Below are positions 9,161-34,766 of a stretch of 45,566 nt of DNA, one piece after another; position 1 is the stretch's first letter; each line of letters starts with the position of its first letter. The DNA lies in sequence record NC_073325.1; one strand, given 5' to 3'. Below the pieces are notes generated by a model, which did not search any database, was not told where the DNA came from, and saw only the letters and a program-made list of their open reading frames with translations. Source of the stretch: Escherichia phage vB_EcoS_XY1. The translations under genes were made by a program, and so were the position numbers.

Positions 9161-9197
9161 CTTGCACACCCCAACATAATAGGATACTATTCACTTA
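9161..9197. promoter_or_regulatory. 37-bp bidirectional promoter/operator element (inverted copy of 30192-30228)
   Basis: Plus orientation TTGCAC-N17-TACTAT; minus orientation TTGGTG-N16-TATTAT; contains the palindrome AATAG-N4-CTATT; 36 of 37 nt identical to the reverse complement of 30192-30228. Confidence 0.5.
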
Positions 9198-16487: not shown

Positions 16488-16513
16488 AATGAAAAGAGGG
16501 ACCGAAGTCCCTC
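16488..16513 (-). terminator. Attenuating terminator just downstream of the major capsid gene
   Basis: GAGGGAC-loop-GTCCCTC hairpin followed by a T-run on the minus strand. Confidence 0.55.
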
Positions 16514-16530
16514 TCGATTATAGCTTAACC

Positions 16531-17580
16531 TTAAGCCCCGACACCAGTTACCAGGAAGGCAATCGGTACATGCTTACGGTCAACCACACGGTTCCAGTTG
16601 GAGGCGTTCGCCAGGTCCTGCCATGAAGCAGAGCGGGCGATAGTCTCGGTGCCGTTGCCAGTGATTACCGCGCTGGTGAAGCTGTAACCCAGCGGGTGCA
16701 TCAACCAGGTCTTACGGGTCCACAGGGTTTCTACGCCGCCGCCGTTACCACGAGACGCTTCATACTCGTAGTGCAGTGGTTTGACCGGATTGCCTTCACC
16801 GTAACCGATAGCGCCGTTGCCGAAGATGATGGAGATGAACTTACGGGTCGGGCCAGTACCAACTACAGTCATGCTGTCGTCAACAATCACGCGGTAGCCC
16901 TGGTAGGTGGCAAACATGGTGTCGTTGTCAGCGTCTTTGATGAAGTCAATAAGCTGCTGCTTACGGGCCTGCGCATATACGAAGCTGTGCATCGCGATAG
17001 CACCCAGCACGTCACCGCCGTTACCCATCAGCGCATCACCCATAGTCTGGGTAGCGTCGATGAACGCGCCCGCGTCGAAGCCCAGAGTAGAGGACACGTC
17101 GATTACCATGTCGTTCTGCTTGTGGTATGCGTCGGTAGCGGCTACGTTGTCATTGTACAGACCGAGCGCGGTAGCAATAAGACGGCGTTGTGCCTGGCGC
17201 TGCCAGAAGTTATCCAGGCGAGAAGCCACAGATTGCAGCGGGTTCTGGCTGGTCAGTTCGACAGTCAGGTCCGCCTGACCGAAACCTTCGTTCAGGTATG
17301 CAACGCGGGCCATCATCTCACCGGTCTGCACGTTACGCGGGGTGGCGATGTCCTGGTATACGTCGTTCGAGTAGTTAGGCTCGATAGAGGTATCAATCGC
17401 TTTCCAGAAAGGAATGTTAGCGACGTTGGACGGGCCGCGAGCAATCTCGGCAGCGTACGGAGTCGGGGTCAAAATACCTGACTGAAAGAACGCGGTTTTT
17501 TCTACCGGGTCCTCGGTCATATAAGACGCCAGGACCGGGATGTTGCCAGTTACGATATCGCCGATAGTGGTAATTGCCAT
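16531..17580 (-). CDS. Major capsid protein (HK97 type)
   Basis: 349 aa downstream of the scaffold gene, followed by a terminator; composition and length typical of HK97-type capsid proteins. Confidence 0.8.
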   Translation of the reverse strand: MAITTIGDIVTGNIPVLASYMTEDPVEKTAFFQSGILTPTPYAAEIARGPSNVANIPFWKAIDTSIEPNYSNDVYQDIATPRNVQTGEMMARVAYLNEGFGQADLTVELTSQNPLQSVASRLDNFWQRQAQRRLIATALGLYNDNVAATDAYHKQNDMVIDVSSTLGFDAGAFIDATQTMGDALMGNGGDVLGAIAMHSFVYAQARKQQLIDFIKDADNDTMFATYQGYRVIVDDSMTVVGTGPTRKFISIIFGNGAIGYGEGNPVKPLHYEYEASRGNGGGVETLWTRKTWLMHPLGYSFTSAVITGNGTETIARSASWQDLANASNWNRVVDRKHVPIAFLVTGVGA

Positions 17581-17582
17581 TA

Positions 17583-18338
17583 TTATTTCCTCAGGGCTTT
17601 AAGTTGCCGTTCAAATTCGGCAGGGTTCGATTTATACAGAGCTAAACGCTCCGCTTCACTCATGTCTTTAAACGCTGGTGCGGCCCCGCCGCCTTTGCTA
17701 CCGGAAGCCCCGCCGCCGGAAGCTGCATTTGCTTTAATCAAATGCGAAAATGCTTTGTGTTCACGCAGGTATTTGCGGAACTGTTCCGGGTCAGTCGTGA
17801 TTACGTTGCCATCCGCACCAACAAACTTAGTAACCACGTCATCGCCTTCGAACTCAGTCTTAACGAACGGAGCAAGAATGTCTACTGCTTCCGGGGTAAT
17901 AAAGTCGCCCGCGAAAGAGCCTAACACCGCTTTACGTTCACTGCCGAGGATACGCTCTGCCATTTTGGAGATGCGACCATCTTTCTCGGCTAACACCGGG
18001 TCATACTGGCTACGAATCGTCTTTTCGAACTCGTCCATCTTACCAGCGGCTTTTAACGCCTCCTGGTGCGCGCGCTGCCGTTCTTCTTCGGCCTCTTTTG
18101 CTTTACGAGCGGCTTCTTTCTTCTCCGCCAGCAATGCTTCCTGATTGGCCTTAAGCCCGGCAACTTCTTTCTCAATCAGCGCCTGAACTTCTTCAGCGGT
18201 GAACATTTTCGGCGCGTCACCGCCACCAGCTTTATCTTCTGCCCCAGCTTCTTCCTGGAACGGATAACGTAAAAAACGATTCATAGTCAGTATGTCCCCT
18301 GGACGTTGGAACCCGGGCCACCCGGATTTACATGTCAA
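17583..18338 (-). CDS. Scaffolding protein
   Basis: Ala/Glu/Lys-rich coiled-coil protein immediately upstream of the capsid gene; true start may be the internal Met near 18284. Confidence 0.6.
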   Translation of the reverse strand: MTCKSGWPGFQRPGDILTMNRFLRYPFQEEAGAEDKAGGGDAPKMFTAEEVQALIEKEVAGLKANQEALLAEKKEAARKAKEAEEERQRAHQEALKAAGKMDEFEKTIRSQYDPVLAEKDGRISKMAERILGSERKAVLGSFAGDFITPEAVDILAPFVKTEFEGDDVVTKFVGADGNVITTDPEQFRKYLREHKAFSHLIKANAASGGGASGSKGGGAAPAFKDMSEAERLALYKSNPAEFERQLKALRK

Positions 18339-18366
18339 GAATAAATTATTCCAACATGCAAGGCAA

Positions 18367-18630
18367 CTATTCCAGAATATTCCTCACGTAATCCTGCAAC
18401 ATGAACACTTTCATACGCAGTTGCCGTACACATTCTGTGTTCTGAACGTCAATGGCTAAATCCTCATCGGCATCGCTACTTGGCGCGGCCAGTTTGCATG
18501 GCGGCTGCATCATCGTCGTATCCGGGGATGGAATTGGCGTTTGCGACGGCGCGGGACTTGAGCAGGACGCGAGCATCGTCGAAAGTGCACACGCTGCGGC
18601 CAGGCGTTTTAATGTACTTAACGACTTCAC
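18367..18630 (-). CDS. o-spanin (Rz1-like outer-membrane lipoprotein)
   Basis: Signal peptide with lipobox LASC, Pro-rich mature region; ORF overlaps the i-spanin gene in another frame. Confidence 0.5.
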   Translation of the reverse strand: MKSLSTLKRLAAACALSTMLASCSSPAPSQTPIPSPDTTMMQPPCKLAAPSSDADEDLAIDVQNTECVRQLRMKVFMLQDYVRNILE

Positions 18631-18862
18631 GGGTAATCACCTCTGATTTCGTCTTGCCTTCGTTGTCAGCGGCGGCGGCCTTTGATTCGTCCTGCTGCTG
18701 CCGTTGTGTTTTCTTCGCTAACTCAGCCTGTGCTTTCTGCTGTTGCTGCGAAACTAGATTAGCCCTGCCTCCGTTCCAGCCGCTGCGGTATTGAAAGTAG
18801 CCGTGGGCATATAACAGGACGATGAAACACGCTCCCGCCACGACAGTTGCTTTAAGATTCAT
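18476..18862 (-). CDS. i-spanin (Rz-like)
   Basis: N-terminal transmembrane helix followed by a Gln/Ala/Lys-rich coiled-coil periplasmic region; contains the overlapping lipoprotein ORF. Confidence 0.55.
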   Translation of the reverse strand: MNLKATVVAGACFIVLLYAHGYFQYRSGWNGGRANLVSQQQQKAQAELAKKTQRQQQDESKAAAADNEGKTKSEVITREVVKYIKTPGRSVCTFDDARVLLKSRAVANANSIPGYDDDAAAMQTGRAK

Positions 18863-18886
18863 GTTTCTCCTTTCTCGATAAGTAAA

Positions 18887-18906
18887 GCCCCGCCTTAAAG
18901 CGGGGC
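18887..18906 (-). terminator. Stem-loop in the leader upstream of the spanin genes
   Basis: GCCCCGC-CTTAAA-GCGGGGC hairpin followed by TTTACTT on the minus strand. Confidence 0.4.
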
Positions 18907-19086
18907 GCTAGTCCTTATCATTTAAACATAGAAACGGCGTAATCTCAGTAAACCCGTTACTTTTTACACGAGCAATAGAGTATGGCCCTTCCGAACGCGT
19001 CAGCGTAACTACACTCATGACTTACGTCCCGCTCCGTTACCTGCCCGCGCCGCGGTCGCTTGTTCATACTTCACAAGCTCAGGTGG

Positions 19087-19129
19087 AGCTTAGCACATTT
19101 TTAGTGAAAAGTCAACTATTCGAATAGTT
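19087..19129 (-). promoter_or_regulatory. Promoter-like site with adjacent 16-bp perfect palindrome
   Basis: Minus orientation TTGACT-N17-TAAGCT; palindrome AACTATTCGAATAGTT at 19114-19129 abuts the -35. Confidence 0.35.
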
Positions 19130-19176
19130 TATTCCTACATTTACAATTTGGTGGAATAACTGGAATAATCACAGGC

Positions 19177-19200
19177 ATTAAAAAGCCCCTTTCGGGGCCT
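19177..19200 (-). terminator. Rho-independent terminator after gene 19205-19666
   Basis: GGCCCCGAAAGGGGC hairpin followed by TTTTT on the minus strand. Confidence 0.6.
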
Positions 19201-19204
19201 AAGT

Positions 19205-19666
19205 TTATTCGGGCTTAGTGACCTTCGCCGCTTTGCTGACAGCCTCTACACCATCGGCATCAGTAACTTTAACGAAGTATTCCCCAACAGAATTAACCGT
19301 CAGAGACAAAGCCTCTTCCGGGGCGTTAACCACTTCCTTCCCGTCTTTGTACCAGGTCAGCGCATATGGTGCTTTGCCCGCCTTAACTTCGACAGCGATA
19401 TTTGCGCTGCCGTCTGCCAGTTCAGCGTCCTGCGGTTGTACGGAGAAATACACATCACCAGCATCCGCCAGGTACTGAATCTCATAAAGCATGCCCGCCG
19501 CCGGTAGCGCAATACCGGTTTTATCTGCAAACGGCATATCGTCTACGGGCGCACCCAGTACACTTTCATCTTCAATAAATACCACGTTCTCGCCGGAGCC
19601 AGGCACACGGGCGTACTGGACTACGCGACGCGACGGTACATCAGTTACTTTGAAAAATCCCATCAT
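19205..19666 (-). CDS. Hypothetical protein with Ig-like C-terminal region
   Basis: 153 aa; C-terminal YALTWYKDGKEV...EYFVKVTDADG resembles Ig-like folds. Confidence 0.35.
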   Translation of the reverse strand: MMGFFKVTDVPSRRVVQYARVPGSGENVVFIEDESVLGAPVDDMPFADKTGIALPAAGMLYEIQYLADAGDVYFSVQPQDAELADGSANIAVEVKAGKAPYALTWYKDGKEVVNAPEEALSLTVNSVGEYFVKVTDADGVEAVSKAAKVTKPE

Positions 19667-20742
19667 TAATCCCCTTTCAGATAATCAGCAACACGTTTAT
19701 CGAGTTCCGCCATCTGCTTAAGCGTGAGCGGATTCCCGAAACCATCTACAGATATTACGCGAAACTCTTCCGGCGATATACCGCTGTTGCGGAAAATCTT
19801 ACCGCGAACCGGGCCGAGTGCTTCATCCTGAAACCATGCCGGTTGCTGTTCCAGGAACTCGTAATAGGTGGTGTCCGTGCTTACCTGAGTACCGCCGTCC
19901 GCTCCTTTAGCCGCTCGTTTTGCGCCCTTATCCAGGAAGTCGAACTCGGAACTGATTACCGGAGCCGTGCACGACCGGCAGTTCGGATGGGCTGGGGGCA
20001 TCGGCCCTTTACCAATTTCCCACGTCATCCCGTCTCTGGCTCTGCAAATCGTACTGGTACGGCTGTCCAGCGTTGACACCCACTCGTACTTCTCGATGAT
20101 GTCGTCGTTCTGACGGTACGTCTCGTTACGTGCTTCGTTGGACACGTGCGACAGCGCGGTGCGGATTACCGTAGCTGCGTTACGCTCGGAGATGTCCGCC
20201 AGCCCACCAGCGCCAACAACATTCTTAACAATCTGCCGTGTTGTCTGGCCTTGTACAAAGCCCATCTTAACGCCCGTTACCAGGCGCGCAACCTCCGTTT
20301 CACCCCAGCCAGACATCAGCTTAGTGAAATCAACAGGCTTGTCGCTCAATGATAGTGGCTGAAACTCAGCAGCGGTCCACACCTGTTCGGCGGTAGGTGT
20401 GACAAATTCCGCGTTAACGTTAGCTGTCAGTGTCTTTACGTTCCACTCAGCTTCATACGCCGCCAGCTCCTTAAGGTCTTCTGTCAGCTTTGTCTGCCAG
20501 TCACCCGTAAGCCCAGTCAATGCTTCTTCGAGGTCGCGTAACAGTTTATTCAGTCGCGCAGTGCTACGCCCGTCGTCACCGAATAACAGCACCTGTCGTT
20601 TTATTTCGTCCCGCATCTCCCGGACGAACGGCGCGAGGTCTTTCACTTCACCGGATGCGGTGCGTTGCAGCCATATCTGGTGGCTAATTAGGGATGTAAG
20701 TAAGCTCATAGATAAACCCTGTGGCGCTAAAGTTAATAGCAT
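19666..20742 (-). CDS. Head morphogenesis protein (minor capsid, SPP1 gp7 / Mu F-like), putative
   Basis: 358 aa immediately after the portal gene; call rests on size and position. Confidence 0.55.
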   Translation of the reverse strand: MLLTLAPQGLSMSLLTSLISHQIWLQRTASGEVKDLAPFVREMRDEIKRQVLLFGDDGRSTARLNKLLRDLEEALTGLTGDWQTKLTEDLKELAAYEAEWNVKTLTANVNAEFVTPTAEQVWTAAEFQPLSLSDKPVDFTKLMSGWGETEVARLVTGVKMGFVQGQTTRQIVKNVVGAGGLADISERNAATVIRTALSHVSNEARNETYRQNDDIIEKYEWVSTLDSRTSTICRARDGMTWEIGKGPMPPAHPNCRSCTAPVISSEFDFLDKGAKRAAKGADGGTQVSTDTTYYEFLEQQPAWFQDEALGPVRGKIFRNSGISPEEFRVISVDGFGNPLTLKQMAELDKRVADYLKGD

Positions 20743-20778: not shown

Positions 20779-22260
20779 TTACTGCTGAGCGGTGTCTTGT
20801 TGCTGAGCCGACTGCGGAATCTCCCCCGTCACCTGAGTAACGGCCCCCAACGGCAATGGTGCATCCTCGATAGCGTTCTGAATGTCTTCATCCTTCCAGT
20901 CAGTTACACCCGCCTTGCGCAACGCAGCATAGTAAGCGGTGGCGGGCAGCAAGCCAGCGTTAATGTCTGCCATCCACTGGGCGCGGTCCTGAGCTGTCAT
21001 CGGTTGTAGGAAGAACTCCATGTTCAGCTTGAATTCAATCTCTGTGTCTTCGCGCAACCCTAGCATCGCCGCTACCCAGCGCAATGCATCGGTATACGCC
21101 ATGCTTACGTTACGCGCGATTGTTGCCATGACTGACGTATCGGCGCCGCGTTGCAGGCGGGCGGATTCGGCGGTGATTTGCTGCGTCGGGGTGATAAGCT
21201 GCGCGCCAATCTGAATGGCCTGATTCTCTTTATCCAGCATATTCTGTTTGGCGAGGTTGTTCTCTCCTGCCTGAACCAGAAACGCATTGCCGCCGTACCC
21301 GATGTTATGGCCCGAACGCGACCCCATACGCACGCCGTGGGGGTTGGCTTCTTTCCACTGTTCCATGCTCATGTTCTCACCGGGGGCAATAAACAGCGTT
21401 GGCTGGCCTACAACGAAGCTGGATTCCTCATTGTCCGCGCTGTTACGGAAATGCCCGATATTAAGTTCAGCCAACGGCAGCAAAGGGGCATCGTCGATGG
21501 TTGCGTCGTTGTTGCTTGCGCCAATAAACGTGAATGGGATTTTGCCGCGTAACTGTTCGCCGAGTTCCGGGAATATTTCGATTACTTCACCCTGAGCGCC
21601 ACCTTCTGCATCGAAGCGGTAAATGCGCTGGCGGTAGCGACCATCAATCAGGTCAAGAACACGATACTGCTCACCGAACTTGGTTTCGAACTCTGCGCCC
21701 TGTTCCGAGTATTCCCACACCTCTCGCAACACGACCATCGTCACTCGGTTAACTGAACCGATGCGGGTAAGTCGCCAGTTGATGATGTTCTCTGCGGTGT
21801 AAAATGCGATGACCGGGTTTAATAACCCCGCGTTCTGTTCTGCTGCCGTTGCCGCAGCTGTCTCAGGGGCATCCACCAGCAACCCACCACGGCCCACCGA
21901 GTCAATCTCCATCAGCGTGTCCTGTGCGTGCTGCCACAGCCCGACACCGGAACCGTCGGCATTACGTAACAGGTACTCAAGTTCCGGCGGGATAATCTGT
22001 TCAGGGTCTTTGCGCATGACACTGCCGACCATCCCCGCCAGGGTGCGTTTAGTGAAGTTGTAACAGATAGCGCCGTTCTCGTATTCTTCCTGGCGCTGTG
22101 CTGCGTAGGTCGGTTCAGGCTCGTTCTTCCCGACGTTGCGCAGGTAACGGATAAGGCCGCCTTCCAGCGCGTGGCGTACCTTCTGCCATTTATTGAAGTG
22201 ATGCAGCCATTCCCGGTGTTTAGTCTTAACACCCTGATTCTGACCGTTCATAGTTAACAT
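20779..22260 (-). CDS. Portal protein
   Basis: 493 aa directly downstream of the large terminase gene. Confidence 0.8.
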   Translation of the reverse strand: MLTMNGQNQGVKTKHREWLHHFNKWQKVRHALEGGLIRYLRNVGKNEPEPTYAAQRQEEYENGAICYNFTKRTLAGMVGSVMRKDPEQIIPPELEYLLRNADGSGVGLWQHAQDTLMEIDSVGRGGLLVDAPETAAATAAEQNAGLLNPVIAFYTAENIINWRLTRIGSVNRVTMVVLREVWEYSEQGAEFETKFGEQYRVLDLIDGRYRQRIYRFDAEGGAQGEVIEIFPELGEQLRGKIPFTFIGASNNDATIDDAPLLPLAELNIGHFRNSADNEESSFVVGQPTLFIAPGENMSMEQWKEANPHGVRMGSRSGHNIGYGGNAFLVQAGENNLAKQNMLDKENQAIQIGAQLITPTQQITAESARLQRGADTSVMATIARNVSMAYTDALRWVAAMLGLREDTEIEFKLNMEFFLQPMTAQDRAQWMADINAGLLPATAYYAALRKAGVTDWKDEDIQNAIEDAPLPLGAVTQVTGEIPQSAQQQDTAQQ

Positions 22261-25387: not shown

Positions 25388-25593
25388 TTCTTCTCTCCTG
25401 CAAACTTAAATTTAGCCTCGAACTCCTTTCTACCAACACAATATTCTGAATAGGATTCATTGAATTTCATCAATGGGTAGTCGGCGATAAGTACGTGGTC
25501 CAACCCAACCGCAGTTACAATGAAACTAACTTCACCTACATCACCCCACGAGTAATTACTCTTATAGATGCCACCAACGATAACGTCGATCAT
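25384..25593 (-). CDS. Hypothetical small protein
   Basis: 69-aa ORF with ATGA overlap to its neighbour. Confidence 0.3.
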   Translation of the reverse strand: MIDVIVGGIYKSNYSWGDVGEVSFIVTAVGLDHVLIADYPLMKFNESYSEYCVGRKEFEAKFKFAGEKK

Positions 25594-25738
25594 TTCTTCT
25601 CTCCTGCATAAGCTGCTTTCAGTGTCTGCATCGCGGAGAACCAGAATGCAGCCGCTGGGATGCTGTTGCTCAGGTTGCTAACGGCGATGCGTGCCATCAG
25701 TTGTGCGTCTTTGAATGCTTCGATATCTGTAATTTTCA

Positions 25739-25936
25739 TTAGTTATTCTCCAGTATTTCTAACGCTTTCACGAGGTAACGTTTACGTAAAACATCAGTCT
25801 GCGCGCTATTAGCCCTGCGTATGTAGCCCGCAGCAGCCCTCATCTGTAGTTTTTCCACCGAACCATTCCCTATAACTGATGCGATACATTTAACTTCGAG
25901 TTCTTCGGTTATTTCTATCGTCGATACGTTGCCCAT
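25739..25936 (-). CDS. Hypothetical small protein
   Basis: 65 aa; GAGAG SD; first gene after a promoter-like TTGACT-N17-TATATT near 25955-25985. Confidence 0.3.
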   Translation of the reverse strand: MGNVSTIEITEELEVKCIASVIGNGSVEKLQMRAAAGYIRRANSAQTDVLRKRYLVKALEILENN

Positions 25937-26021
25937 TTCTCTCTACTCCGTTCTCGTTGTCGATGAAGTAAATATAATAGGGTCTACGGTAATAGTCAAC
26001 TAGTCATTACAGAAAATAGAT

Positions 26022-26052
26022 AAAAAAAATCCCGGCTGGGTCAGGGCCGGGA
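26022..26052 (-). terminator. Rho-independent terminator (3' end of a candidate small RNA)
   Basis: TCCCGGC-loop-GCCGGGA hairpin followed by T8 on the minus strand. Confidence 0.7.
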
Positions 26053-26092
26053 TAAAACTGGAGAGCAGAGGGATGGAACAGGAGGTGATTTA

Positions 26093-26121
26093 AGTATCGT
26101 CGGATTAGTCTCAGGTGTCAA
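26093..26121 (-). promoter_or_regulatory. Sigma70-like promoter between two terminators
   Basis: Minus orientation TTGACA-N17-GATACT, about 60 nt upstream of the 26022-26052 terminator. Confidence 0.4.
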
Positions 26122-26124
26122 TTG

Positions 26125-26156
26125 GTAAAATAAAACCCGGATTAGCGGTCCGGGTT
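26125..26156 (-). terminator. Rho-independent terminator after the lysis cassette
   Basis: AACCCGGA-loop-TCCGGGTT hairpin followed by TTTTATTTT on the minus strand. Confidence 0.65.
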
Positions 26157-26284
26157 TCGGTCATAAGCCCCTGAACCCTACGCAGTCTCCACCGCTTGGG
26201 CTGCTGCTTCGGGTTTACCAGGGCTTAGTATGCAAGCACAAGCAGCGTGGAAGTAATTTTACTAAATGCCTTCGTATTCGTCCA

Positions 26285-26770
26285 TCATTTAACAGCCCTC
26301 CCGATAGCCTCAGCCTCTTGCCACGGTTTACCGTCGAACAGCGCCAGACGTCCGGCTGTACGGCGACGCAGGCCGAGTAACGGTTTGCCGTTCTGGTTGA
26401 TGAACAGCGCCAGCTTAGCCCGCAGCGTCGGAATATCACCGTAACGCAGAGCCTTACCCGTGCCCGTAGTAGACGCAATCACGCCAGCGCCCGCGTTATA
26501 GACCAGGTCGCAAACAGCATCAAACTGCGCCTGCGTCAGTGAATGGTGTGCCGCTGCATCAACCGCAGCTACAGCCTTAGCCATATCGCGATTCAGTAAC
26601 AGCAAGCCCTGTCCTGGTGTGATGGTCTTACCTGGTGTTACGTCCGGCCCGTAGTGGCCGTAGCCTATGGTAAGGTACTTCTCATTCGGCGTAGCGCGAT
26701 ACGCAGTTCCACGGAACCCCTCGAATGCGGCGGTAAAATGCAATCCATTATCTGAAATATTTCGAGACAC
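26285..26770 (-). CDS. Endolysin, phage lysozyme-like (GH24-type)
   Basis: N-terminal FEGFRGTAYR...YLTIGYGH lysozyme motif; directly downstream of two holin-like genes. Confidence 0.75.
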   Translation of the reverse strand: MSRNISDNGLHFTAAFEGFRGTAYRATPNEKYLTIGYGHYGPDVTPGKTITPGQGLLLLNRDMAKAVAAVDAAAHHSLTQAQFDAVCDLVYNAGAGVIASTTGTGKALRYGDIPTLRAKLALFINQNGKPLLGLRRRTAGRLALFDGKPWQEAEAIGRAVK

Positions 26771-27020
26771 GCTTATGCCCTCCGTATGACAGCCACGCCT
26801 GACGAATCTGGCGCAGCGCGACTAATGTGATTAATGTCTCAGGCAGCGTTGGCGACATGCTGCCATGTAACAGGTGGATGCATCCGGCAGCGCAGACGAT
26901 AGCAGTCAGGATATAGAGCACCCGACCAAATAATCCGTCGTCCACGCAGGGGTGATACACATTAAACAGCGATGCGCCCCCGATTGCCAGCATACCGCCG
27001 AACCAGAATAGCTCATTCAT
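26748..27020 (-). CDS. Holin or antiholin (second small membrane protein of the lysis cassette)
   Basis: 90 aa with two hydrophobic helices; overlaps both neighbours. Confidence 0.45.
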   Translation of the reverse strand: MNELFWFGGMLAIGGASLFNVYHPCVDDGLFGRVLYILTAIVCAAGCIHLLHGSMSPTLPETLITLVALRQIRQAWLSYGGHKRVSKYFR

Positions 27021-27321
27021 CCGGGCCTCCTCGACGTGAGATGTATTCCCCGGCGACGATACCGGATAGACGGGAATAAATAGGCATCCAGAGAATTGCG
27101 ATGATGAATCCCAGGCCAGCTATCTCTCGCTCGCCGGTGATACCGAACCATTGCGCTGCAAGAGGCGCACCGAATACGGCGCAGGTGAAGCCGGTAGCGA
27201 TAAAGCAGAAGCCATCAATAGGGCCAGAAATAACGGACTTATGTTGCCGTAGGCCGATTACCCCTCCGGCTAGTGCGGCAGCGAGAAGCCACCCCGTCAC
27301 TGTTTCAGTAAATTTATCCAA
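27013..27321 (-). CDS. Holin
   Basis: 102 aa with multiple hydrophobic helices and a charged C-terminus; first gene of the lysis cassette. Confidence 0.55.
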   Translation of the reverse strand: MDKFTETVTGWLLAAALAGGVIGLRQHKSVISGPIDGFCFIATGFTCAVFGAPLAAQWFGITGEREIAGLGFIIAILWMPIYSRLSGIVAGEYISRRGGPDE

Positions 27322-27396
27322 GATGAATCCTCCAGGTGCGTATTAAGTATGCAGTAACTGGAGGATACCACGGGTAGGAATTATCCTAATAGCGGT

Positions 27397-27690
27397 TTAT
27401 TTATGTCTCCAGATGTATTGTCGTCTCTGTGGTTTCGTCGGGATATCATCGTATCCCAGCGATTTCCAGTAATTAAATAACCGATTAGAGATTGCAGCGC
27501 GTTCCTGTGTTTTAAACTCACCGAGGTTTACGGCCTTCCCGTTCTGGAATCCACAGGCGCGGACAGCTTTACGCCGCTCTTGTATCTCAGGGAACAGTGC
27601 GTTACGGCGACGCTTGTGTATACGTGTCTTCGCTCTCGGTGACAGCGGCGCAAGGCCGCTTCGTTTCAGGATGTCAGTTGCGAGGCTCAT
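27397..27690 (-). CDS. Small basic protein with AP2-like DNA-binding motif
   Basis: NGKAVNLGEFKTQERAAISNRL resembles the AP2 motif also present in the 5247-5897 protein. Confidence 0.35.
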   Translation of the reverse strand: MSLATDILKRSGLAPLSPRAKTRIHKRRRNALFPEIQERRKAVRACGFQNGKAVNLGEFKTQERAAISNRLFNYWKSLGYDDIPTKPQRRQYIWRHK

Positions 27691-27938
27691 AGCAGAATGC
27701 CAAGTTCGTATATGGTTTGCTGGTCTACAAACTCAGGCGCTATAACGTCACTATAGTCGCTATACACCTTACCAGCTTCTCGCACAAGACAACGGGCTGC
27801 CGCTTTTATTTCCAGAAGTTTGGCTTCCAGTTCCTTGTAGTCTTCGTAGCTTACATAACGCCCTTCATGCGAGTCCGGGACAGGCGTTATATCTACTGCG
27901 CCCGCAAAATCTTCTGTTAAATCATATCTCTGTACCAT
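27687..27938 (-). CDS. Hypothetical protein, tandem paralog of 27938-28207
   Basis: Shares MVQRY...YEDY.ELE.K with the upstream gene; TGATG stop/start overlap (track ORF trimmed to the internal Met). Confidence 0.4.
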   Translation of the reverse strand: MVQRYDLTEDFAGAVDITPVPDSHEGRYVSYEDYKELEAKLLEIKAAARCLVREAGKVYSDYSDVIAPEFVDQQTIYELGILL

Positions 27939-28207
27939 CACTCCACCCCCTCCACATGTGTAACTGACCCACAGTTCGCGCACTCGACGTAATCAGGGAA
28001 CTGGTCTTTGTATTTCTGTAACTCGGCTTCCGCTTTTTCTGCCCACGCTAAAAAGTCGAAAGCGGCATTGAGCATCTGCGTACGCCATGTCCTGAGTTCA
28101 TTGAACTTACGCTCAAGTTCCGCGTAGTCTTCGTAACCAACCCAGTCACCATCGTCGTGCGGCCCTATTAAACCGCCTTGTAATAAATATCTCTGTACCA
28201 TAATCAC
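27938..28207 (-). CDS. Hypothetical protein, tandem paralog of 27687-27938; C-terminal CxxC
   Basis: MIMVQRYLL...GYEDYAELERKFNEL...CANCGS. Confidence 0.4.
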   Translation of the reverse strand: MIMVQRYLLQGGLIGPHDDGDWVGYEDYAELERKFNELRTWRTQMLNAAFDFLAWAEKAEAELQKYKDQFPDYVECANCGSVTHVEGVE

Positions 28208-28422
28208 TTCTCCTGTTTACCAAGTCGCTTAGGTGAGCAGATAGCGCGTACCTCTGAATCGTTAGGCTTGTCGCCCTGAAACAAGAAGTGCGCGTTCTCT
28301 GCAGCGCGTGCCGCTGACTGGCACGCCTCCATCGAGTAAAACGTTTCTGTTGCCGCCAGGTGCATCTGACCCGCAGATAACACCCAGATAAATAAGATGC
28401 TGGTCATTTCTTTAACCCACAT
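28204..28422 (-). CDS. Hypothetical small protein with N-terminal hydrophobic segment (possibly exported)
   Basis: MTSILFIWVLSAGQMHLAA signal-like segment. Confidence 0.3.
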   Translation of the reverse strand: MWVKEMTSILFIWVLSAGQMHLAATETFYSMEACQSAARAAENAHFLFQGDKPNDSEVRAICSPKRLGKQEK

Positions 28423-28679
28423 TTAATGCACATACATGGAAACCCGACTCCGTAAAATTGCCATTCGTGTTCACGCTGTTTCTCCTTCCACCGTACCCAC
28501 ATCCGCTGAACCTCTGGTTCAGCGTAGCCATTGTCTTTCCGGGCCGGGGTGAACCCAAACCGGCTCCGGAACCATATTTCAAACTGCTGCAAAGTGAGTC
28601 TCACTTCCTGGTAACTTGAAGCCGTTGTCGGTCCGCGCCACGTTCCACTCAATCCCACCGTGGTACACAACCATGTCAT
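28404..28679 (-). CDS. Hypothetical protein (start uncertain; overlaps 28579-28764)
   Basis: 91-aa ORF; overlap suggests a shorter true product. Confidence 0.2.
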   Translation of the reverse strand: MTWLCTTVGLSGTWRGPTTASSYQEVRLTLQQFEIWFRSRFGFTPARKDNGYAEPEVQRMWVRWKEKQREHEWQFYGVGFPCMCIKCGLKK

Positions 28680-28764
28680 CTAAATCCAGGTCTATAACGG
28701 TTCCTACTTTGAAGATGCCTTTAGTCAGTTCACTGTCTCTTTTTGTAACTTTAACTTCTAACAT
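28579..28764 (-). CDS. Hypothetical small protein
   Basis: 61-aa ORF in the same-strand early cluster. Confidence 0.3.
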   Translation of the reverse strand: MLEVKVTKRDSELTKGIFKVGTVIDLDLDDMVVYHGGIEWNVARTDNGFKLPGSETHFAAV

Positions 28765-29137
28765 TTCGTTTTCCTCTGTCTCGTCTGTGTAAATGAATAG
28801 TAGCCTATTCTATCTTAGTGTGCAAGTAAATTTTATTGGTGTTTTAAAGATAATCGTTCGCCACGAATCCAGTAGTACCTCGGGCGTCTGGCCCACTGGC
28901 ACCAGCGCATAACACGGTACTTGTTGCCGTCTGACGCAACAATAAGCCCGAATCGCTTTTCTCCGTTTCTACCGGTCCAGGTTACGATGTCATTCAGTTT
29001 CATTGTTGCGTCTCCTGCAATAGTCGCTTCGATTGTTGCGTTTGGTGAAAGTGTCGCCTTTTGACGACACTAAGTTAAAGTTGTACGCTGCTGTGTAGCA
29101 GCGTAAGTCACTCAGTAAAATCCCAAACTATTGAACA

Positions 29138-29338
29138 TCACACTTCCGGCGGCTCAGGTAACGGCATCCAGTGAGTCACGTACTTATCGTAGTGATTCCA
29201 GAAAGGCTTTCTCCCGCCATCAGGAACGATGTAATAATCGTGTTGAACTGCGTTATTTAACGTTTCATACACCAGGAATTCTTTATCTGTACTACCGTTG
29301 CCCGGCAGCATCTCACTACACTTAATCCACTCACCCAT
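29138..29338 (-). CDS. Hypothetical protein, DUF551-like
   Basis: MGEWIKCSEMLPGNG N-terminus and ...HWMPLPEPPEV C-terminus; GAGGTGA SD. Confidence 0.35.
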   Translation of the reverse strand: MGEWIKCSEMLPGNGSTDKEFLVYETLNNAVQHDYYIVPDGGRKPFWNHYDKYVTHWMPLPEPPEV

Positions 29339-29481
29339 ATCTCACCTCGTATTCATCGCAGTTTGAACACCAGCTTTCCACGCCCGCCACGCGAGACGTG
29401 TCTTAACGTTCAGGTACTCTTTCTTTGAACCCTTGTTAACCGGCAGACCCTCGACGATGGCCCACCGTTCGAATGCTTCTC

Positions 29482-29688
29482 TCATAACTCAACCCCGTGG
29501 TGCTTAAGAAAACTGTTTAACTTGTACTCACGGTACTGTGCTACCTCCTTAGCATGAGCCAAATGCCACGACTTCAACGGGGTGTACTTCGCCTTTTCCC
29601 AGCATTCAACACCAAACTCGGCGGCGCGCAGACCGCCAATCAGACGGCGTAAGCGGAATTCGTTATACGGACTCATACCAACCTCCAC
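29482..29688 (-). CDS. Hypothetical small protein
   Basis: 68-aa ORF; a 47-codon ORF with ATGA overlap follows at about 29342-29485. Confidence 0.3.
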   Translation of the reverse strand: MEVGMSPYNEFRLRRLIGGLRAAEFGVECWEKAKYTPLKSWHLAHAKEVAQYREYKLNSFLKHHGVEL

Positions 29689-29730
29689 AACGCGTGCACC
29701 ACATAAACGGCGCTGATGATTAAAACAAAC

Positions 29731-29982
29731 TTATTCACGGCAACCTCCCTCAGAGTCGTCGGCACGAGCATCATGATTCGATGCCGTTTTGATTATATTT
29801 TTCAGGCAACTTTTGCACGGCATAATTCTCCCTCCCTGCTCCATAACTAACAGGGCGTGCTGTGCGTCCTGAAACAACCAATCACTAAATTGAGGCTTAC
29901 AGCCGCACCATGTTTCTATATCATGTTTGGCGAGTTTAACCCCATCGCGATAGTCGTATTTAATTATATGATTAAACATCAC
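29731..29982 (-). CDS. Hypothetical Cys-rich protein (possible zinc binding)
   Basis: WCGCK...PCKSC cysteine pairs. Confidence 0.3.
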   Translation of the reverse strand: MMFNHIIKYDYRDGVKLAKHDIETWCGCKPQFSDWLFQDAQHALLVMEQGGRIMPCKSCLKNIIKTASNHDARADDSEGGCRE

Positions 29983-30164
29983 TTCGCCCCTTTGAATTTA
30001 AAATTGTTGCCGATGAGTTTTAAATTATCGCGGAAGGCGTAACCATGTTTCTTTCGTATAAGACCCCATACATCTACAGCGATACTGTATTCATTTTCGT
30101 CCTGGGTAACTATTACGTACTGTCCGCCGCGTTTCGTTTTAGCCAACTGACCCTTCTTAAACAT
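29979..30164 (-). CDS. Hypothetical small basic protein, first gene of the leftward early operon
   Basis: Start trimmed to the Met preceded by AGAGGAG; lies just downstream of the 30192-30228 promoter element. Confidence 0.3.
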   Translation of the reverse strand: MFKKGQLAKTKRGGQYVIVTQDENEYSIAVDVWGLIRKKHGYAFRDNLKLIGNNFKFKGAK

Positions 30165-30191
30165 AACCCTAACTCCTCTGTCTAGTTTCAA

Positions 30192-30228
30192 TAAGTGAAT
30201 AGTAACCTATTATGTTGGGGTGTGCAAG
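30192..30228. promoter_or_regulatory. 37-bp bidirectional promoter/operator element (inverted copy of 9161-9197)
   Basis: TAAGTGAATAGTAACCTATTATGTTGGGGTGTGCAAG; minus orientation TTGCAC-N17-TACTAT; plus orientation TATTAT -10; palindrome AATAG-N4-CTATT. Confidence 0.5.
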
Positions 30229-30610
30229 AGATTCATTGAAAATGGTTACGTTGCCGTTGTGATTCTTCAGGTAGGGTTGTGCCTTTATTCTTATTACTTG
30301 GTAACTAAAGGGCAGGCCCTAAGCCTGCCCAATAATCGTTACATTTTTACGGTTGCGAATCTACGGCACTTTAAGAAAATCAGATACTTAAGATATATTC
30401 CGCCGATGGGAATAGAGCTTGCCCAGGGCAACCGGAGATACTTAGGAAGGAAAGTTACGATAATTCGAATGTTCAGTAAACTGCCGCCTAACACTTCGCG
30501 TTGGGCGCTCGTTTTCGGCGGGTTTTACAAGGTGAACAGGAATCAAAGTAACTAAGATATAGAAGCACCTTAAACGAAGATTTTCTTAATGTCAATAGGT
30601 GCGATTATGT

Positions 30611-30639
30611 TTGATTTCCCATTATTCGCAATGTATACT
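30611..30639 (+). promoter_or_regulatory. Sigma70-like promoter for the rightward early operon
   Basis: TTGATT-N17-TATACT about 33 nt upstream of the 30672 ATG. Confidence 0.45.
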
Positions 30640-30671
30640 TGGTTTCGTTAACTGATAATGGGGGTTTGAGA

Positions 30672-30842
30672 ATGACACAGAATGAAGTAGCCGAGCGTAT
30701 TGGGGTTACCCGTCGCACGCTGAATAACTGGTTAAAGAGTGGGAAGTTCCCGGATTGTTGTATCCGTATTATGGGCCGCCGGCAGCCGGGTACTTTCGAC
30801 CCGGAGAAAGTGGAAGCGTGGATTAAGGAGAATGTAAAATGA
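30672..30842 (+). CDS. Small HTH DNA-binding protein (AlpA/excisionase-like fold)
   Basis: MTQNEVAERIGVTRRTLNNWLKSGKFP; GGGGG SD; start trimmed from track ORF 30639. Confidence 0.45.
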   Translation: MTQNEVAERIGVTRRTLNNWLKSGKFPDCCIRIMGRRQPGTFDPEKVEAWIKENVK

Positions 30843-31072
30843 CCGAGTTCCAGTCCCGCGTATTTACGGCAGTCGTTTCATTAACCTGTAAAAAAGGGTC
30901 GTGCAGCGTTATGGACTTGCGCCGTAGTTATTTTAGGTACTATAGTTCCGCCATTATTGAAGGGTCGTTGAAGGTACTGGTTAAATCTGGTGTCGTGAAA
31001 AATGTTGGCGGGAAATATAGTGCTGTTGCCGAAGTTCGCGGAATGACCGCTACTTTAGAAGACCTGGAATAA
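30839..31072 (+). CDS. Hypothetical protein
   Basis: 77-aa ORF with ATGA overlap between the HTH gene and the primase-helicase. Confidence 0.3.
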   Translation: MTEFQSRVFTAVVSLTCKKGSCSVMDLRRSYFRYYSSAIIEGSLKVLVKSGVVKNVGGKYSAVAEVRGMTATLEDLE

Positions 31073-31130
31073 AAGAAAGCCCCGACGCGGTGAACGCCGA
31101 GGCTAAATTACTTGCTGAAGGAAATATAAC

Positions 31131-33389: not shown

Positions 33390-33406
33390 GTAAAAAGAAA
33401 GGGGCG

Positions 33407-33622
33407 TTACGCCCCTTCACCTAGCGCCAGCCACTTGGCGTCTACTTCCAGCACTTCCGCCAGTTTAAACAGCGTTGCCGGGCGTACGTCCTGAGTTACC
33501 CCGAGTGCAAGCTGGTTAATCGCGCCCTGGGAAACGCCGGCCAGAACAGCCAGACGGCGCTGGGAGATACCGAGTTCTTTACGGCGTTGCTCTACACGGA
33601 TGCCTAGTTCAGATGGTTGCAT
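33407..33622 (-). CDS. Cro/XRE-family HTH transcriptional regulator
   Basis: 71 aa; LGISQRRLAVLAGVSQGAINQLALG HTH; AAGGAG SD; divergent from the rightward early promoters. Confidence 0.65.
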   Translation of the reverse strand: MQPSELGIRVEQRRKELGISQRRLAVLAGVSQGAINQLALGVTQDVRPATLFKLAEVLEVDAKWLALGEGA

Positions 33623-33642
33623 GTCAGTTACTCCTTAGTCAG

Positions 33643-33671
33643 TTGATATGTGAATAGTACCATATTAATTA
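33643..33671 (+). promoter_or_regulatory. Upstream operator/promoter copy (TTGATA-TGTGAATAGTACCATAT-TAATTA)
   Basis: Imperfect copy of the operator core 44 bp upstream of the main copy. Confidence 0.4.
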
Positions 33672-33686
33672 TTTTAGAAAAGCCCA

Positions 33687-33715
33687 TTGACATGTGAATA
33701 GTTCGCTATTATAGT
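33687..33715 (+). promoter_or_regulatory. Near-consensus sigma70 promoter with embedded operator palindrome
   Basis: TTGACA-N17-TATAGT; spacer contains AATAG-TTCG-CTATT; 29 bp upstream of the 33744 ATG. Confidence 0.6.
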
Positions 33716-33743
33716 TAGCCCATACCAAACGAGAGGGGCAGAT

Positions 33744-33971
33744 ATGAACACAATCACTGGGGCCATAGCTAAAGGTTTTCGAGCAATTTTCGGCGCTCCG
33801 CAAGAAGTGTGCACAAAACATAAATTTGTACTTTCTTGCGTAGTAGGGGATGAGTTTGATGGGTTCGATAAACTTGTTGTCTGTGACCATTGCGGGCAAG
33901 AAGCTATTCAACACTCAAACGGTAAATTTGAACTAATAGACGATAGCCTTACTGAAGGCGACGGTGAGTAA
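33744..33971 (+). CDS. Hypothetical protein, zinc-ribbon-like
   Basis: CTKHK...C...CDHC cysteine spacing; GAGAGGGG SD. Confidence 0.3.
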   Translation: MNTITGAIAKGFRAIFGAPQEVCTKHKFVLSCVVGDEFDGFDKLVVCDHCGQEAIQHSNGKFELIDDSLTEGDGE

Positions 33972-33995
33972 CTTACACAAACAGGAGAGAAACAA

Positions 33996-34755: not shown

Positions 34756-34766
34756 GGGTCGGAATT

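What the first reader, a model, noticed from the sequence alone, without database searches (positions are those of the whole stretch)
18863..19204. ORF-free 340-bp island inside the head gene cluster: perfect 16-bp palindrome, promoter-like site and two hairpins
Seen: between the terminator of gene 19205-19666 (19177-19200) and the Rz start (18862) there is no ORF of 60 codons or more. The island contains the perfect palindrome AACTATTCGAATAGTT (19114-19129) abutting a TTGACT-N17-TAAGCT promoter-like site on the minus strand, then about 190 nt ending in the hairpin GCCCCGC-CTTAAA-GCGGGGC (18887-18906). Inference: either an independently regulated promoter and structured leader for the spanin genes, or a small non-coding RNA of roughly 190 nt. 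A 36-codon ORF (MSVVTLTRSEGPYSIARVKSNGF...) also lies inside and cannot be excluded.
Basis: partly seen in the sequence, partly recalled or inferred. Interest (0 to 1): 0.5.

Follow-up and report, generated by a model that had tools for sequence, protein, structure and literature searches.

The report
Conserved promoter and structured spanin leader RNA
The gap between the head-decoration gene and the spanin genes of this Kagunavirus-type phage holds a conserved promoter followed by a non-coding, strongly folded ~215-nt RNA leader. It belongs to an apparently undescribed RNA family, and a second copy sits in the early region of many related phages. It most likely controls how much transcription and translation reaches the spanin genes.

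Summary
The 16-bp palindrome is not statistically unusual and is specific to the Kagunavirus type.

What is real is a transcription-control cassette, read on the minus strand. It consists of the Hoc-like gene terminator, an array of GGAATA/TATTCC half-sites, a sigma-70 promoter with an extended -10 (TTGACT-N17-TGcTAAGCT), and a ~215-nt non-coding leader.

The island core is 95-98% identical in about 45 relatives, while the flanking genes are 84-94% identical. Neither small ORF is conserved.

Compensatory base changes between Kagunavirus, Jerseyvirus and paralogous copies support:
- a 5' domain of hairpin P1 plus a 65-nt irregular hairpin P2;
- a 95-nt 3' hairpin whose tip is the "terminator" hairpin and whose base pairs with the Rz Shine-Dalgarno/AUG region.

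At least 41 related phages carry a second copy of the promoter plus P1-P2 in their early region, again followed by a terminator-like hairpin.

No Rfam family, E. coli chromosomal homologue or publication on the RNA was found.

Best reading: a cis-acting regulatory leader (attenuation plus ribosome-site occlusion) for the spanin genes. A trans-acting sRNA or a put-like antiterminator remains possible.

The parts
19172..19200 (-). Intrinsic terminator of the Hoc-like Ig-domain gene (GGCCCCGAAAGGGGC + UUUUU). It forms the left boundary of the cassette. Relatives carry insertions immediately after it, at 19167/19168.
   Evidence: Sequence. RNAfold gives -12.7 kcal/mol. Annotated as a terminator in Sciku, phi135 and PVP-SE2. 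The insertion breakpoint is seen.
19116..19167 (-). Array of GGAATA/TATTCC half-sites: TATTCC-AG-TTATTCC, then 17 nt, then GGAATAA-AC-TATTC-GAATAG. It includes the 16-bp palindrome at 19114-19129. It is a probable regulator-binding region, and a related array precedes the scaffold gene.
   Evidence: Conserved between the Kagunavirus and Jerseyvirus types. GAATA-N3-TATTC occurs only here and at 18339-18351 in the whole window. The array is absent from the early-region paralogue.
19087..19115 (-). Sigma-70-type promoter: TTGACT (19115-19110), 17-nt spacer, TGc-TAAGCT (extended -10, hexamer 19092-19087). The predicted start is near 19080/19079.
   Evidence: Sequence. Conserved as TAGACT-N17-TGtTACGCT in Jerseyvirus, and as TTGACT-N17-TG(c/g)TAAGCT in the paralogous copy. 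Predicted in silico as a host promoter in phage fBC-Eco01 (PMC9825357, Table S2) and annotated in phi135 and PVP-SE2. No experimental start site is known.
19058..19078 (-). P1, the 5'-terminal hairpin of the leader (GCUUGU-GAAGUAUGA-ACAAGC).
   Evidence: Fold. The pairs are kept through changes on both sides in Jerseyvirus and in variants.
18984..19055 (-). P2, a 65-nt irregular hairpin (19055-18991) with a conserved asymmetric internal loop and a variable apical hairpin. It is followed by the invariant unpaired GGAAGGGCC.
   Evidence: 91-94% of cells are paired, against 28-43% when the partners are slid. 14-16 pairs show changes on both sides. At the basal-helix pair C:G, relatives have U:A or A:U. 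G:U pairs make the structure specific to this strand.
18852..18947 (-). 3' domain: a long imperfect hairpin. Its tip is the GC-rich terminator-like hairpin (18887-18906, followed by UUUACUUAU). Its lower helices pair with the spacer between the Shine-Dalgarno sequence and the start codon, with the AUG (18862-18860), and with the first Rz codons.
   Evidence: RNAfold of all variants. Covariance model R1 finds the Jerseyvirus leaders full length at E of about 6e-5. 90.7% of cells are paired, against 35-52% when slid, and 8 pairs show changes on both sides, including one in the SD-AUG spacer helix.
18957..19067 (-). 36-codon ORF-A (MNKRPRRGQ...), annotated as a hypothetical protein in some GenBank records. 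Probably not a gene.
   Evidence: It is truncated, frameshifted or lacks a start codon in 8 of 41 Kagunavirus-type variants (window included), and its stop is shifted downstream in 2 more. Variable columns by codon position are 13/13/10.
18908..19018 (-). Not a gene.
   Evidence: The ATG is present only in this window. Nine relatives have earlier stops. Variable columns by codon position are 12/8/10.
18338..18383 (-). Related second site before the scaffold gene: GGAATATTCTGGAATAG, then TTGCCT (18366-18361), a 17-nt spacer containing GGAATAATT, and TATTCT (18343-18338).
   Evidence: Invariant between the Kagunavirus and Jerseyvirus types.

Best explanation
The island is a self-contained transcription-control cassette of the late region of Guernseyvirinae phages. 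All parts are read on the minus strand.

1. After the terminator of the Hoc-like gene, a host sigma-70 promoter with an extended -10 restarts transcription near 19080. The promoter is shown by sequence and conservation. Its activity is inferred.

2. The promoter is preceded by a conserved array of GGAATA/TATTCC half-sites. This array is shared with the promoter-like site in front of the scaffold gene and is missing from the early-region paralogue. It is therefore probably the binding site of a factor that times late expression (inferred).

3. The transcript starts with a non-coding leader of about 215 nt.
   - The 5' domain is a terminal hairpin P1, an irregular 65-nt hairpin P2, and an invariant GGAAGGGCC...CUAUUG. 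It is an autonomous RNA module. Many relatives have a second copy, with the same promoter, in their early control region.
   - The 3' domain is one long imperfect hairpin. Its GC-rich tip followed by UUUACUUAU can stop part of the polymerases, which would release a short RNA of about 190 nt. Its base pairs with the Shine-Dalgarno/AUG region of Rz, so read-through transcripts translate Rz poorly until the stem is opened or cleaved.

The structures are shown by covariation. Attenuation and translational occlusion are inferred.

The net effect proposed is cis-regulation of how much, and when, spanin (Rz/Rz1) is made from a promoter that also feeds the downstream capsid genes.
For: - Identity and synteny: the window is a Kagunavirus-type phage with the order portal, MuF, Hoc-like, island, Rz/Rz1, scaffold, capsid.
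- Conservation: the island is more conserved than the flanking genes.
- Promoter: conserved in three lineages and in the paralogue, and predicted independently in published genome papers and GenBank records.
- Coding: there is no coding signature, and both ORFs are broken in relatives.
- Folding: energies are below shuffles, z = -2.6 for the Kagunavirus type and -2.5 for the Jerseyvirus type.
- Covariation: 91% paired against 30-43% slid on a MAFFT alignment. On model-fitted alignments, 94% with 14 double-sided pairs, 91% with 16, and 91% with 8 for the 3' domain that contains the Rz start region.
- Strand: the structure is strand-specific. G:U pairs are present, and reverse-strand model scores are 16-33 bits against 104-116 bits.
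- Promoter supply for Rz: only 24 nt separate the distal hairpin from the Rz ATG, and no consensus promoter was found on the coding strand in that stretch, so Rz must be transcribed through the leader.
- Distal hairpin: its U-tract is weak and not conserved (K: UUUACUUA; J: UUAGCGUA). This fits an attenuator or structural stem better than a full stop.
- Paralogue: in the second copy, promoter plus P1-P2 is followed by another terminator-like hairpin, in at least 41 phage records.
Against: - No transcript data were available, so the start site, the 3' end and the read-through fraction are all predictions.
- The lower helices that cover the AUG and the first codons consist mostly of invariant positions, which say nothing either way.
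- The structure-fitted alignments lean towards the model, and Kagunavirus versus Jerseyvirus is essentially one deep split.
- The scaffold and capsid genes seem to have a promoter-like site of their own, so the rationale of one strong promoter shared with capsid genes is not needed.
- The paralogous copy sits upstream of an operon that appears to have its own promoter. This fits a stand-alone RNA gene as well as it fits a leader.
- The function of the highly conserved 5' domain is not explained by attenuation or occlusion alone.
- The island travels with the Hoc side in mosaics that carry a Jerseyvirus-like Rz (L040, L041, L043, L054), although the first Rz codons stay the Kagunavirus type, shown for L040, L041 and L054.
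Confidence: 0.5

Rival explanations
1. A stand-alone gene for a trans-acting small RNA of about 190 nt, with its own promoter and terminator. It would act on host or phage mRNAs or proteins, and Rz would be expressed only by incidental read-through.
For: - The promoter plus P1-P2 module is duplicated in a different genomic context. There it ends in a terminator-like hairpin upstream of genes that appear to have their own promoter.
- In that slot the cassette is exchangeable with a non-homologous cassette of the same layout.
- Conservation exceeds that of the coding flanks.
- The AU-rich stretch GAGAUUACGCCGUUUCUAUGUUUAAAUGAUAAGG is almost invariant in the Kagunavirus type.
Against: - The U-tracts after the hairpins are short and are not conserved in Jerseyvirus.
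- Rz has no promoter of its own downstream of the hairpin.
- The near-invariant AU-rich stretch is predicted to be paired with the Rz start region rather than free.
- No significant complementarity to other parts of the phage was found, and there is no E. coli homologue.
- No Rfam family matches.
Confidence: 0.25
2. An ordinary internal promoter with a passive, stabilising 5' untranslated region. The high conservation would reflect recent recombination spread of the module rather than a specific regulatory role.
For: - A hairpin at the very 5' end is a classical protection against RNase E (established knowledge from ompA-type leaders).
- The region is a mosaic joint and an insertion hot spot.
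- Long structured leaders also avoid Rho loading.
Against: - Compensatory changes in several helices across four sequence types show selection on the fold.
- Invariant unpaired motifs (GGAAGGGCC, CUAUUG, the internal loop of P2) are kept across paralogues that otherwise differ.
- About 40 distinct variants still share 95-98% identity while both flanks diverge.
Confidence: 0.12
3. The transcribed part acts as DNA rather than RNA, for example as a replication origin or primer-forming region, a packaging site, or a protein-binding site.
For: The paralogous copy lies next to the helicase-primase operon. Promoter-driven origins are known in T7 and T4 (own knowledge).
Against: - G:U pairs and much lower reverse-strand model scores indicate a strand-specific RNA fold.
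- The island copy lies in the late region.
- There are no iterons or AT-rich unwinding element in the conserved GC-rich part.
Confidence: 0.05
4. The island encodes a small protein: the annotated 36-codon ORF at 18957-19067, or the reader's ORF at 18908-19018.
For: ORF-A is intact in most Kagunavirus-type variants and is annotated in Sciku, fKuEco01 and others. A 39-codon ORF in the same frame over the block TTCGGAAGGGCC exists in Jerseyvirus.
Against: - Frameshifts or truncations to 9-17 residues, or a lost start codon, occur in 8 of 41 variants (window included) without loss of nucleotide conservation.
- Third codon positions are not enriched for variation.
- The N-terminal halves of the Kagunavirus and Jerseyvirus ORFs are unrelated.
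- ORF-B has a start codon only in this window.
- No credible Shine-Dalgarno sequence precedes either ORF.
Confidence: 0.03

Closest known systems
Phage lambda late control region (PR' promoter, 194-nt 6S RNA, tR' terminator, then the lysis genes S, R, Rz/Rz1)
   Same: A promoter is followed by an untranslated transcript of about 190 nt that ends in a terminator-like hairpin placed directly in front of lysis genes. A short RNA is expected as a by-product.
   Different: No Q-like antiterminator gene is annotated in the closest relative. Here the leader is strongly structured, with covariation. Only the spanin genes follow; holin and endolysin lie elsewhere. The hairpin also occludes the ribosome-binding site.
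HK022 put RNAs (putL/putR), RNA-only processive antiterminators (PMC9378689)
   Same: Two stem-loops with bulges start within a few nucleotides of the transcript 5' end. There are two related copies per genome behind two different promoters (in many relatives). Terminator-like hairpins lie downstream.
   Different: There is no detectable sequence or structure homology: model R2 scores 7 bits or less on the HK022 segment 25,500-36,000. P1 plus P2 is about 95 nt, against about 70 nt for put. Antitermination is untested, and this window has only one copy.
Lambda N leader and T7 early mRNA RNase III sites (own knowledge)
   Same: A long imperfect hairpin in a 5' leader contains the ribosome-binding site of the downstream gene. 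Cleavage or opening of the stem would activate translation.
   Different: No evidence for RNase III cleavage here. The stem also carries a GC-rich terminator-like tip.
ompA-type 5' stabiliser leaders (own knowledge)
   Same: A hairpin lies at the extreme 5' end of a long untranslated leader.
   Different: Conservation extends over 200 nt, with invariant loops and a paralogue, which is more than a stabiliser needs.

Membership tests
Sigma-70 promoter (extended -10 class) | A -35 hexamer close to TTGACA, with a 16-18 nt spacer | tested here: met
   TTGACT (5 of 6 matches) with a 17-nt spacer. The spacing is kept in Jerseyvirus and in the paralogue.
Sigma-70 promoter (extended -10 class) | A -10 hexamer close to TATAAT, or TGn plus TAnnnT | tested here: inconclusive
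   TAAGCT matches only 3 of 6 positions and fails the scan threshold. TGc precedes it, however, and T-12, A-11 and T-7 are present and conserved.
Sigma-70 promoter (extended -10 class) | A mapped transcription start site | not testable with these tools
   Only in-silico predictions exist (PMC9825357 Table S2; GenBank features).
Intrinsic (Rho-independent) terminator, for the hairpin at 18887-18906 | A GC-rich stem-loop | tested here: met
   8 bp with 7 G-C pairs, -17.2 kcal/mol. It is kept by compensatory changes: C:G becomes G:C, A:U or U:A.
Intrinsic (Rho-independent) terminator, for the hairpin at 18887-18906 | A U-rich tract immediately after the stem | tested here: inconclusive
   UUUACUUA (5 of 8 U) in the Kagunavirus type, but UUAGCGUA (3 of 8) in Jerseyvirus and none in Cornellvirus-type leaders.
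HK022 put RNA | Sequence or structure homology to putL/putR | tested here: not met
   Covariance model R2, run with filters off, on HK022 positions 25,500-36,000. The best score was 7 bits at E = 2.3. The put sites are not annotated in the record, and their presence in that segment is assumed.
HK022 put RNA | Two stem-loops directly downstream of a promoter, with two copies per genome | tested here: met
   P1 plus P2 start at about +2. A second copy is present in at least 41 relatives, though not in this window.
HK022 put RNA | Terminator read-through in cis, and binding to the RNA polymerase beta' zinc-binding domain | not testable with these tools
   Needs in vitro transcription or genetics.
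Any described RNA family (Rfam 15) | A match at or near a family's gathering score | tested here: not met
   The best hits scored 14-25 bits against thresholds of 35-65 bits, at E of 0.45 or more.
Protein-coding small gene | An open frame kept in relatives, with variation concentrated at third codon positions | tested here: not met
Lambda-type Q-dependent late promoter | A Q-like antiterminator gene in the genome | not tested
   None is annotated in the close relative vB_VIPECOTH07. No dedicated profile search was run.

The most novel reading that the evidence does not exclude
P1-P2 is a new family of RNA-only, put-like processive antiterminators in virulent enterobacterial siphophages. Polymerases that start at the TTGACT-N17-TAAGCT promoters would carry the nascent P1-P2 RNA. 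They would then read through the cassette's own hairpin and the later terminators of the operon, such as the one after the capsid gene at 16494-16515. Polymerases starting at other promoters would stop there. The early-region paralogue would do the same for the leftward operon that leads to the holin and endolysin genes.
Probability: 0.15. Interest if true: 0.8.

Novelty: new member of a known kind. Interest (0 to 1): 0.5.

Why it matters
Guernseyvirinae (Kagunavirus, Jerseyvirus) are among the phages most often isolated for therapy and biocontrol of E. coli and Salmonella, yet their gene regulation is essentially unstudied.

This work defines:
- a conserved late promoter;
- a candidate regulator-binding array;
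- a structured RNA family, with a paralogue, that is absent from Rfam and from the literature searched.

It corrects "hypothetical protein" annotations that lie inside the RNA. It also gives concrete, testable hypotheses for how spanin expression is set and, possibly, for a second example of RNA-mediated control of elongation in phages.

Tried and rejected
- **Rfam scans** of the window region and of Jerseyvirus and Cornellvirus loci found nothing near threshold.
- **tRNA/tmRNA search** found none. The "tRNA-Ser" annotated in phage celemicas lies on the opposite strand over the 3' end of the Hoc-like gene and its terminator, not in the island core.
- **Homology to E. coli chromosomes**: none. 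The single plasmid hit is a 44-kb Kagunavirus-like record.
- **Self-similarity or complementarity** of the island to the rest of the window gave only terminator-like words at chance level.
- **Loose pattern scans** of viral and genome collections returned mostly chance matches. Filtering with model R2 left only Guernseyvirinae-type contigs: L162, L164 and L254.
- **Cornellvirus-type leaders** (Shemara, SE1, TS6) have the same layout but were not detected by R1 or R2, so homology is unproven.
- **The type-B early leader** of this window is not homologous to the island.
- **A canonical K-turn or loop E** in the P2 internal loop was considered by eye and not matched.
- **A DnaA box or CRP site** in the GGAATA array was considered by eye and rejected.
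- **Literature**: no transcription start mapping or non-coding RNA description for this subfamily was found. One time-course RNA-seq paper does not discuss this region.

Full report
**Identity and setting.** The window is a Kagunavirus-type phage of the subfamily Guernseyvirinae. A 1.5-kb segment around the finding is 92-98% identical to many Escherichia phages of that genus, and about 69% identical to Salmonella Jerseyvirus phages. The genes lie on the minus strand:
- portal, 20779-22260
- MuF-like head morphogenesis protein, 19666-20742
- Hoc-like Ig-domain decoration protein, 19205-19666
- the island, 18863-19204
- i-spanin Rz, 18476-18862
- o-spanin Rz1, 18367-18630
- scaffold, 17583-18284
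- major capsid protein, 16531-17580

**Checking the observation.** Three points need qualification.
- A perfect 16-bp palindrome is not unusual. The window has two, 0.79 are expected, and 55% of shuffles have at least one. In Jerseyvirus the same position is not palindromic.
- The -10 hexamer TAAGCT matches the consensus at only three positions, so the promoter scan did not report the site. It is preceded by TG at the extended -10 position and keeps the critical T, A and final T.
Relatives have CTG or CCG there.

**Conservation.** I collected 47 loci from viral contigs with the Rz protein, plus annotated GenBank records.
- From 19167 to the Rz start, the island is 95-98% identical to the window in about 45 Kagunavirus-type loci.
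- In the same loci the Hoc-like gene is 84-92% identical and Rz 90-94%.
- Four loci with a Jerseyvirus-like Rz (76-82%) still have the Kagunavirus-type island at 95-97%.
- Jerseyvirus phages have a diverged island of the same length and layout. Cornellvirus-type phages have a longer one.
- Homology breaks sharply at 19167/19168. Many relatives carry 300-800 bp of extra DNA there, directly after the Hoc terminator.

**Not coding.**
- The other 36-codon ORF (18957-19067) is annotated as a hypothetical protein in Sciku and fKuEco01. In 8 of 41 distinct Kagunavirus-type variants it is cut to 9-17 residues, frameshifted or without a start codon; in 2 more its stop is shifted downstream. Nucleotide conservation downstream is not lost in these variants.

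**The DNA part.**
- The promoter TTGACT-N17-TGcTAAGCT (19115-19087) is conserved as TAGACT-N17-TGtTACGCT in Jerseyvirus. It has been predicted in silico before: HP1 of phage fBC-Eco01 (PMC9825357, Table S2) and promoter features in phi135 and PVP-SE2.
- Upstream lies a conserved array: TATTCC-AG-TTATTCC, 17 nt, then GGAATAA-AC-TATTC-GAATAG.
- The pattern GAATA-N3-TATTC occurs only twice in 45.6 kb: here and at 18339-18351. At the second site, GGAATATTCTGGAATAG abuts TTGCCT-N17-TATTCT just before the scaffold gene. That block is invariant between Kagunavirus and Jerseyvirus.
- The half-site GAATAG also belongs to the palindromic motif TGAATAGTAnCCTATTAT. It occurs six times at early or middle promoters of the window, against zero expected, and was reported as a repeated "phage promoter" motif in PMC9825357.
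- I infer that the array binds a phage or host factor that times the two late promoters flanking the spanin cassette. This is not shown.

**The RNA part.** From the predicted start (about 19080) to the Rz ATG, the transcript folds more stably than shuffles, with z = -2.6 here and -2.5 for Jerseyvirus.

*Helix support on a plain MAFFT alignment.* For 45 sequences, the helices P1, P2 and the distal hairpin are 91% paired, against 30-43% when partners are slid. The covariation score is 0.144, against 0.064 for shuffles (0 of 500 reach it).

*Covariance models.* Two models were built from Kagunavirus-type sequences only.
- R2 (5' domain) finds the Jerseyvirus leaders full length at E = 1e-5 to 2e-7.
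- R1 (3' domain) finds them at E of about 6e-5.

*Pairing on the model-fitted alignments.*
- The 5' domain is 94% paired, with 14 pairs changed on both sides.
- The 3' domain is 91% paired, with 8 such pairs.
- These alignments lean towards the model, and the Kagunavirus/Jerseyvirus split is one deep event. However, independent events exist within the Kagunavirus type. In L010 and L033 the apical helix changes from GGGAC/GUCC to GGUGC/GCAC. In L033 the middle helix changes from U:A to G:C. The distal hairpin pair C:G appears as A:U (Sciku) and U:A (L030).

*Strand.* G:U pairs, and reverse-strand scores of 16-33 bits against 104-116 bits, show that the fold belongs to the late-gene strand.

**Anatomy of the leader.**
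- P1 (19078-19058) starts one or two nucleotides from the predicted 5' end.
- P2 (19055-18991) has an invariant basal helix (ACCGCGG.GCG / CGC.UUCGG), a conserved asymmetric internal loop and a variable apical hairpin.
- An invariant GGAAGGGCC and CUAUUG follow.
- The 3' domain (18947-18852) is one long imperfect hairpin. The stem below it (UGAUAAG/CUUAUCG) changes to AUAUACG/CGUAUA in Jerseyvirus through two compensatory pairs.
- The next helix pairs GUUUC with the GAAAC that lies between the Shine-Dalgarno sequence and the AUG. In Jerseyvirus this becomes GUAU/AUAC, another compensatory change. The lowest helix pairs GAGAUU.AC with the AUG and the first Rz codons.
- The U-tract after the tip is UUUACUUA here but UUAGCGUA in Jerseyvirus. 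The hairpin is therefore conserved for more than termination.

**A second copy.** Model R2 also hit L164 at 80.8 bits. The same promoter (TTGACTTTTACTTAAAAATATGCTAAGCT) and a P1-P2 domain with further compensatory changes lie in the early control region. That copy is back to back with the gene of an HTH regulator and the helicase-primase operon. It is followed by about 100 nt, a terminator-like hairpin and then the leftward early genes.
- At least 41 phage records have this copy over 80% or more of a 551-nt query. Two sequence subtypes exist.
- With these sequences included, the basal-helix pair that is C:G in the window appears as U:A and A:U, and 16 pairs show double changes.
- The window itself and its closest relative lack the copy. 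In the same slot (30300-30595) they have a non-homologous cassette of the same layout, which is also found in Jerseyvirus phi135.
- The GGAATA array is absent from the early copy.
- The early genes downstream seem to have their own promoter-like site, TTGCAC-N17-TACTAT.

**Interpretation.** The island is a promoter plus a non-coding structured leader.
- *Cis role.* For Rz there is no other promoter, and the start region of Rz is built into the leader's 3' hairpin. I therefore favour a cis role: partial stopping at the hairpin, and occlusion of the ribosome-binding site (confidence about 0.5).
- *5' domain.* This module is kept in two genomic contexts, each time behind the same promoter and ahead of a terminator-like hairpin, so it must have a function of its own. 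Two readings fit: a trans-acting small RNA (about 0.25), or an RNA that changes the elongating polymerase as HK022 put does (about 0.15; this overlaps the cis reading and is not additional to it).
- *Relation to put.* The put comparison is by architecture only. Model R2 finds nothing in HK022 positions 25,500-36,000, the segment between erf and the replication genes where I assumed the immunity region lies; put is not annotated in the record. The properties of put are taken from PMC9378689.
- *Rejected readings.* A passive stabilising leader, a DNA-level element and a small protein are less likely, for the reasons given under the rival explanations.

**Distribution and novelty.**
- No Rfam family matches, there is no E. 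coli chromosomal homologue, and no paper describing the RNA was found.
- All true model hits are Guernseyvirinae-type phage contigs. One of them is binned in a "Bacillota" MAG.
- The promoter and terminator had been predicted before. The RNA family, its fold, its paralogue and the link to the Rz start region appear to be new. The kind of element, a phage promoter-proximal regulatory leader, is known.

Noticed in passing
L164:720-826 (-), L179:1640-2016 (+), L181:400-765 (+); absent from the window: A paralogous copy of the island promoter plus the P1-P2 RNA lies in the early control region of at least 41 Kagunavirus records. It sits back to back with the HTH-regulator/helicase-primase operon and is followed by its own terminator-like hairpin. 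Two sequence subtypes exist.
   Followed up: yes
window 30300-30595 (- strand); L186:5500-5830: A non-homologous "type B" cassette in the early-left control region: TTGACA-N17-TAAGGT promoter, a structured leader of about 260 nt, and the hairpin GGGCAGGC-UUAG-GGCCUGCCC followed by UUUAGUU. It is conserved between this phage and Jerseyvirus phi135, and occupies the slot where other Kagunaviruses carry the island paralogue. It may be a second undescribed leader or small RNA.
   Followed up: partly
window 9174-9193 (-), 28794-28813, 30196-30215, 33651-33670, 33695-33714, 36791-36810 (+): An operator-like palindromic motif, TGAATAGTAnCCTATTATnT, occurs six times against zero expected. Two copies sit between TTGACA and TATAGT. 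Three copies carry TTGCAC-N17-TACTAT on the opposite strand just before a gene, so the direction assigned to this "phage promoter" in PMC9825357 may be wrong for those copies.
   Followed up: partly
window 18338-18383 (- strand): A promoter-like site before the scaffold gene, TTGCCT-N17-TATTCT, is embedded in GGAATA motifs that overlap the Rz1 stop codon. The block is invariant between Kagunavirus and Jerseyvirus. The nearby TTGACA (18338-18333) is not conserved.
   Followed up: partly
window 19167/19168: An insertion hot spot lies directly after the Hoc-like gene terminator. Relatives carry 300-800 bp here, often with ORFs on the opposite strand (hz69, AV104). Other records annotate an HNH endonuclease (fPoEco01) or a methyltransferase (S120, ER23) within the wider matched span.
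   Followed up: partly
window 18966-18990 (- strand) and the equivalent positions in all leader types: The invariant Shine-Dalgarno-like GGAAGGG is followed 10 nt later by a conserved UUG that opens a mini-ORF of 1-10 codons (UUG CUC GUG UAA in this window; UUG UAA in one paralogue subtype). This could be a ribosome-loading or start-stop element.
   Followed up: no
L040, L041, L043, L054: These are mosaic phages. They combine a Kagunavirus-type Hoc-like gene and island (95-97% identical) with a Jerseyvirus-like Rz (76-82%). In L040, L041 and L054 the leader and the first Rz codons stay the Kagunavirus type, which places the junction inside Rz.
   Followed up: partly
L005:868-945 (phage celemicas): The annotated "tRNA-Ser" lies on the opposite strand across the 3' end of the Hoc-like gene and its terminator. 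ARAGORN finds no tRNA in the window. The annotation is probably a false positive.
   Followed up: partly
L254 (JAEWLW010000073.1, "Bacillota bacterium" MAG): A 6.2-kb contig binned into a Bacillota MAG carries the early-region paralogue of the leader and flanking early-region sequence matching Kagunavirus. It is probably a mis-binned phage contig.
   Followed up: partly
window 19177-19200: The consensus terminator scan did not list the Hoc-like gene terminator, although it is a 7-bp stem containing six G-C pairs followed by five U residues.
   Followed up: partly
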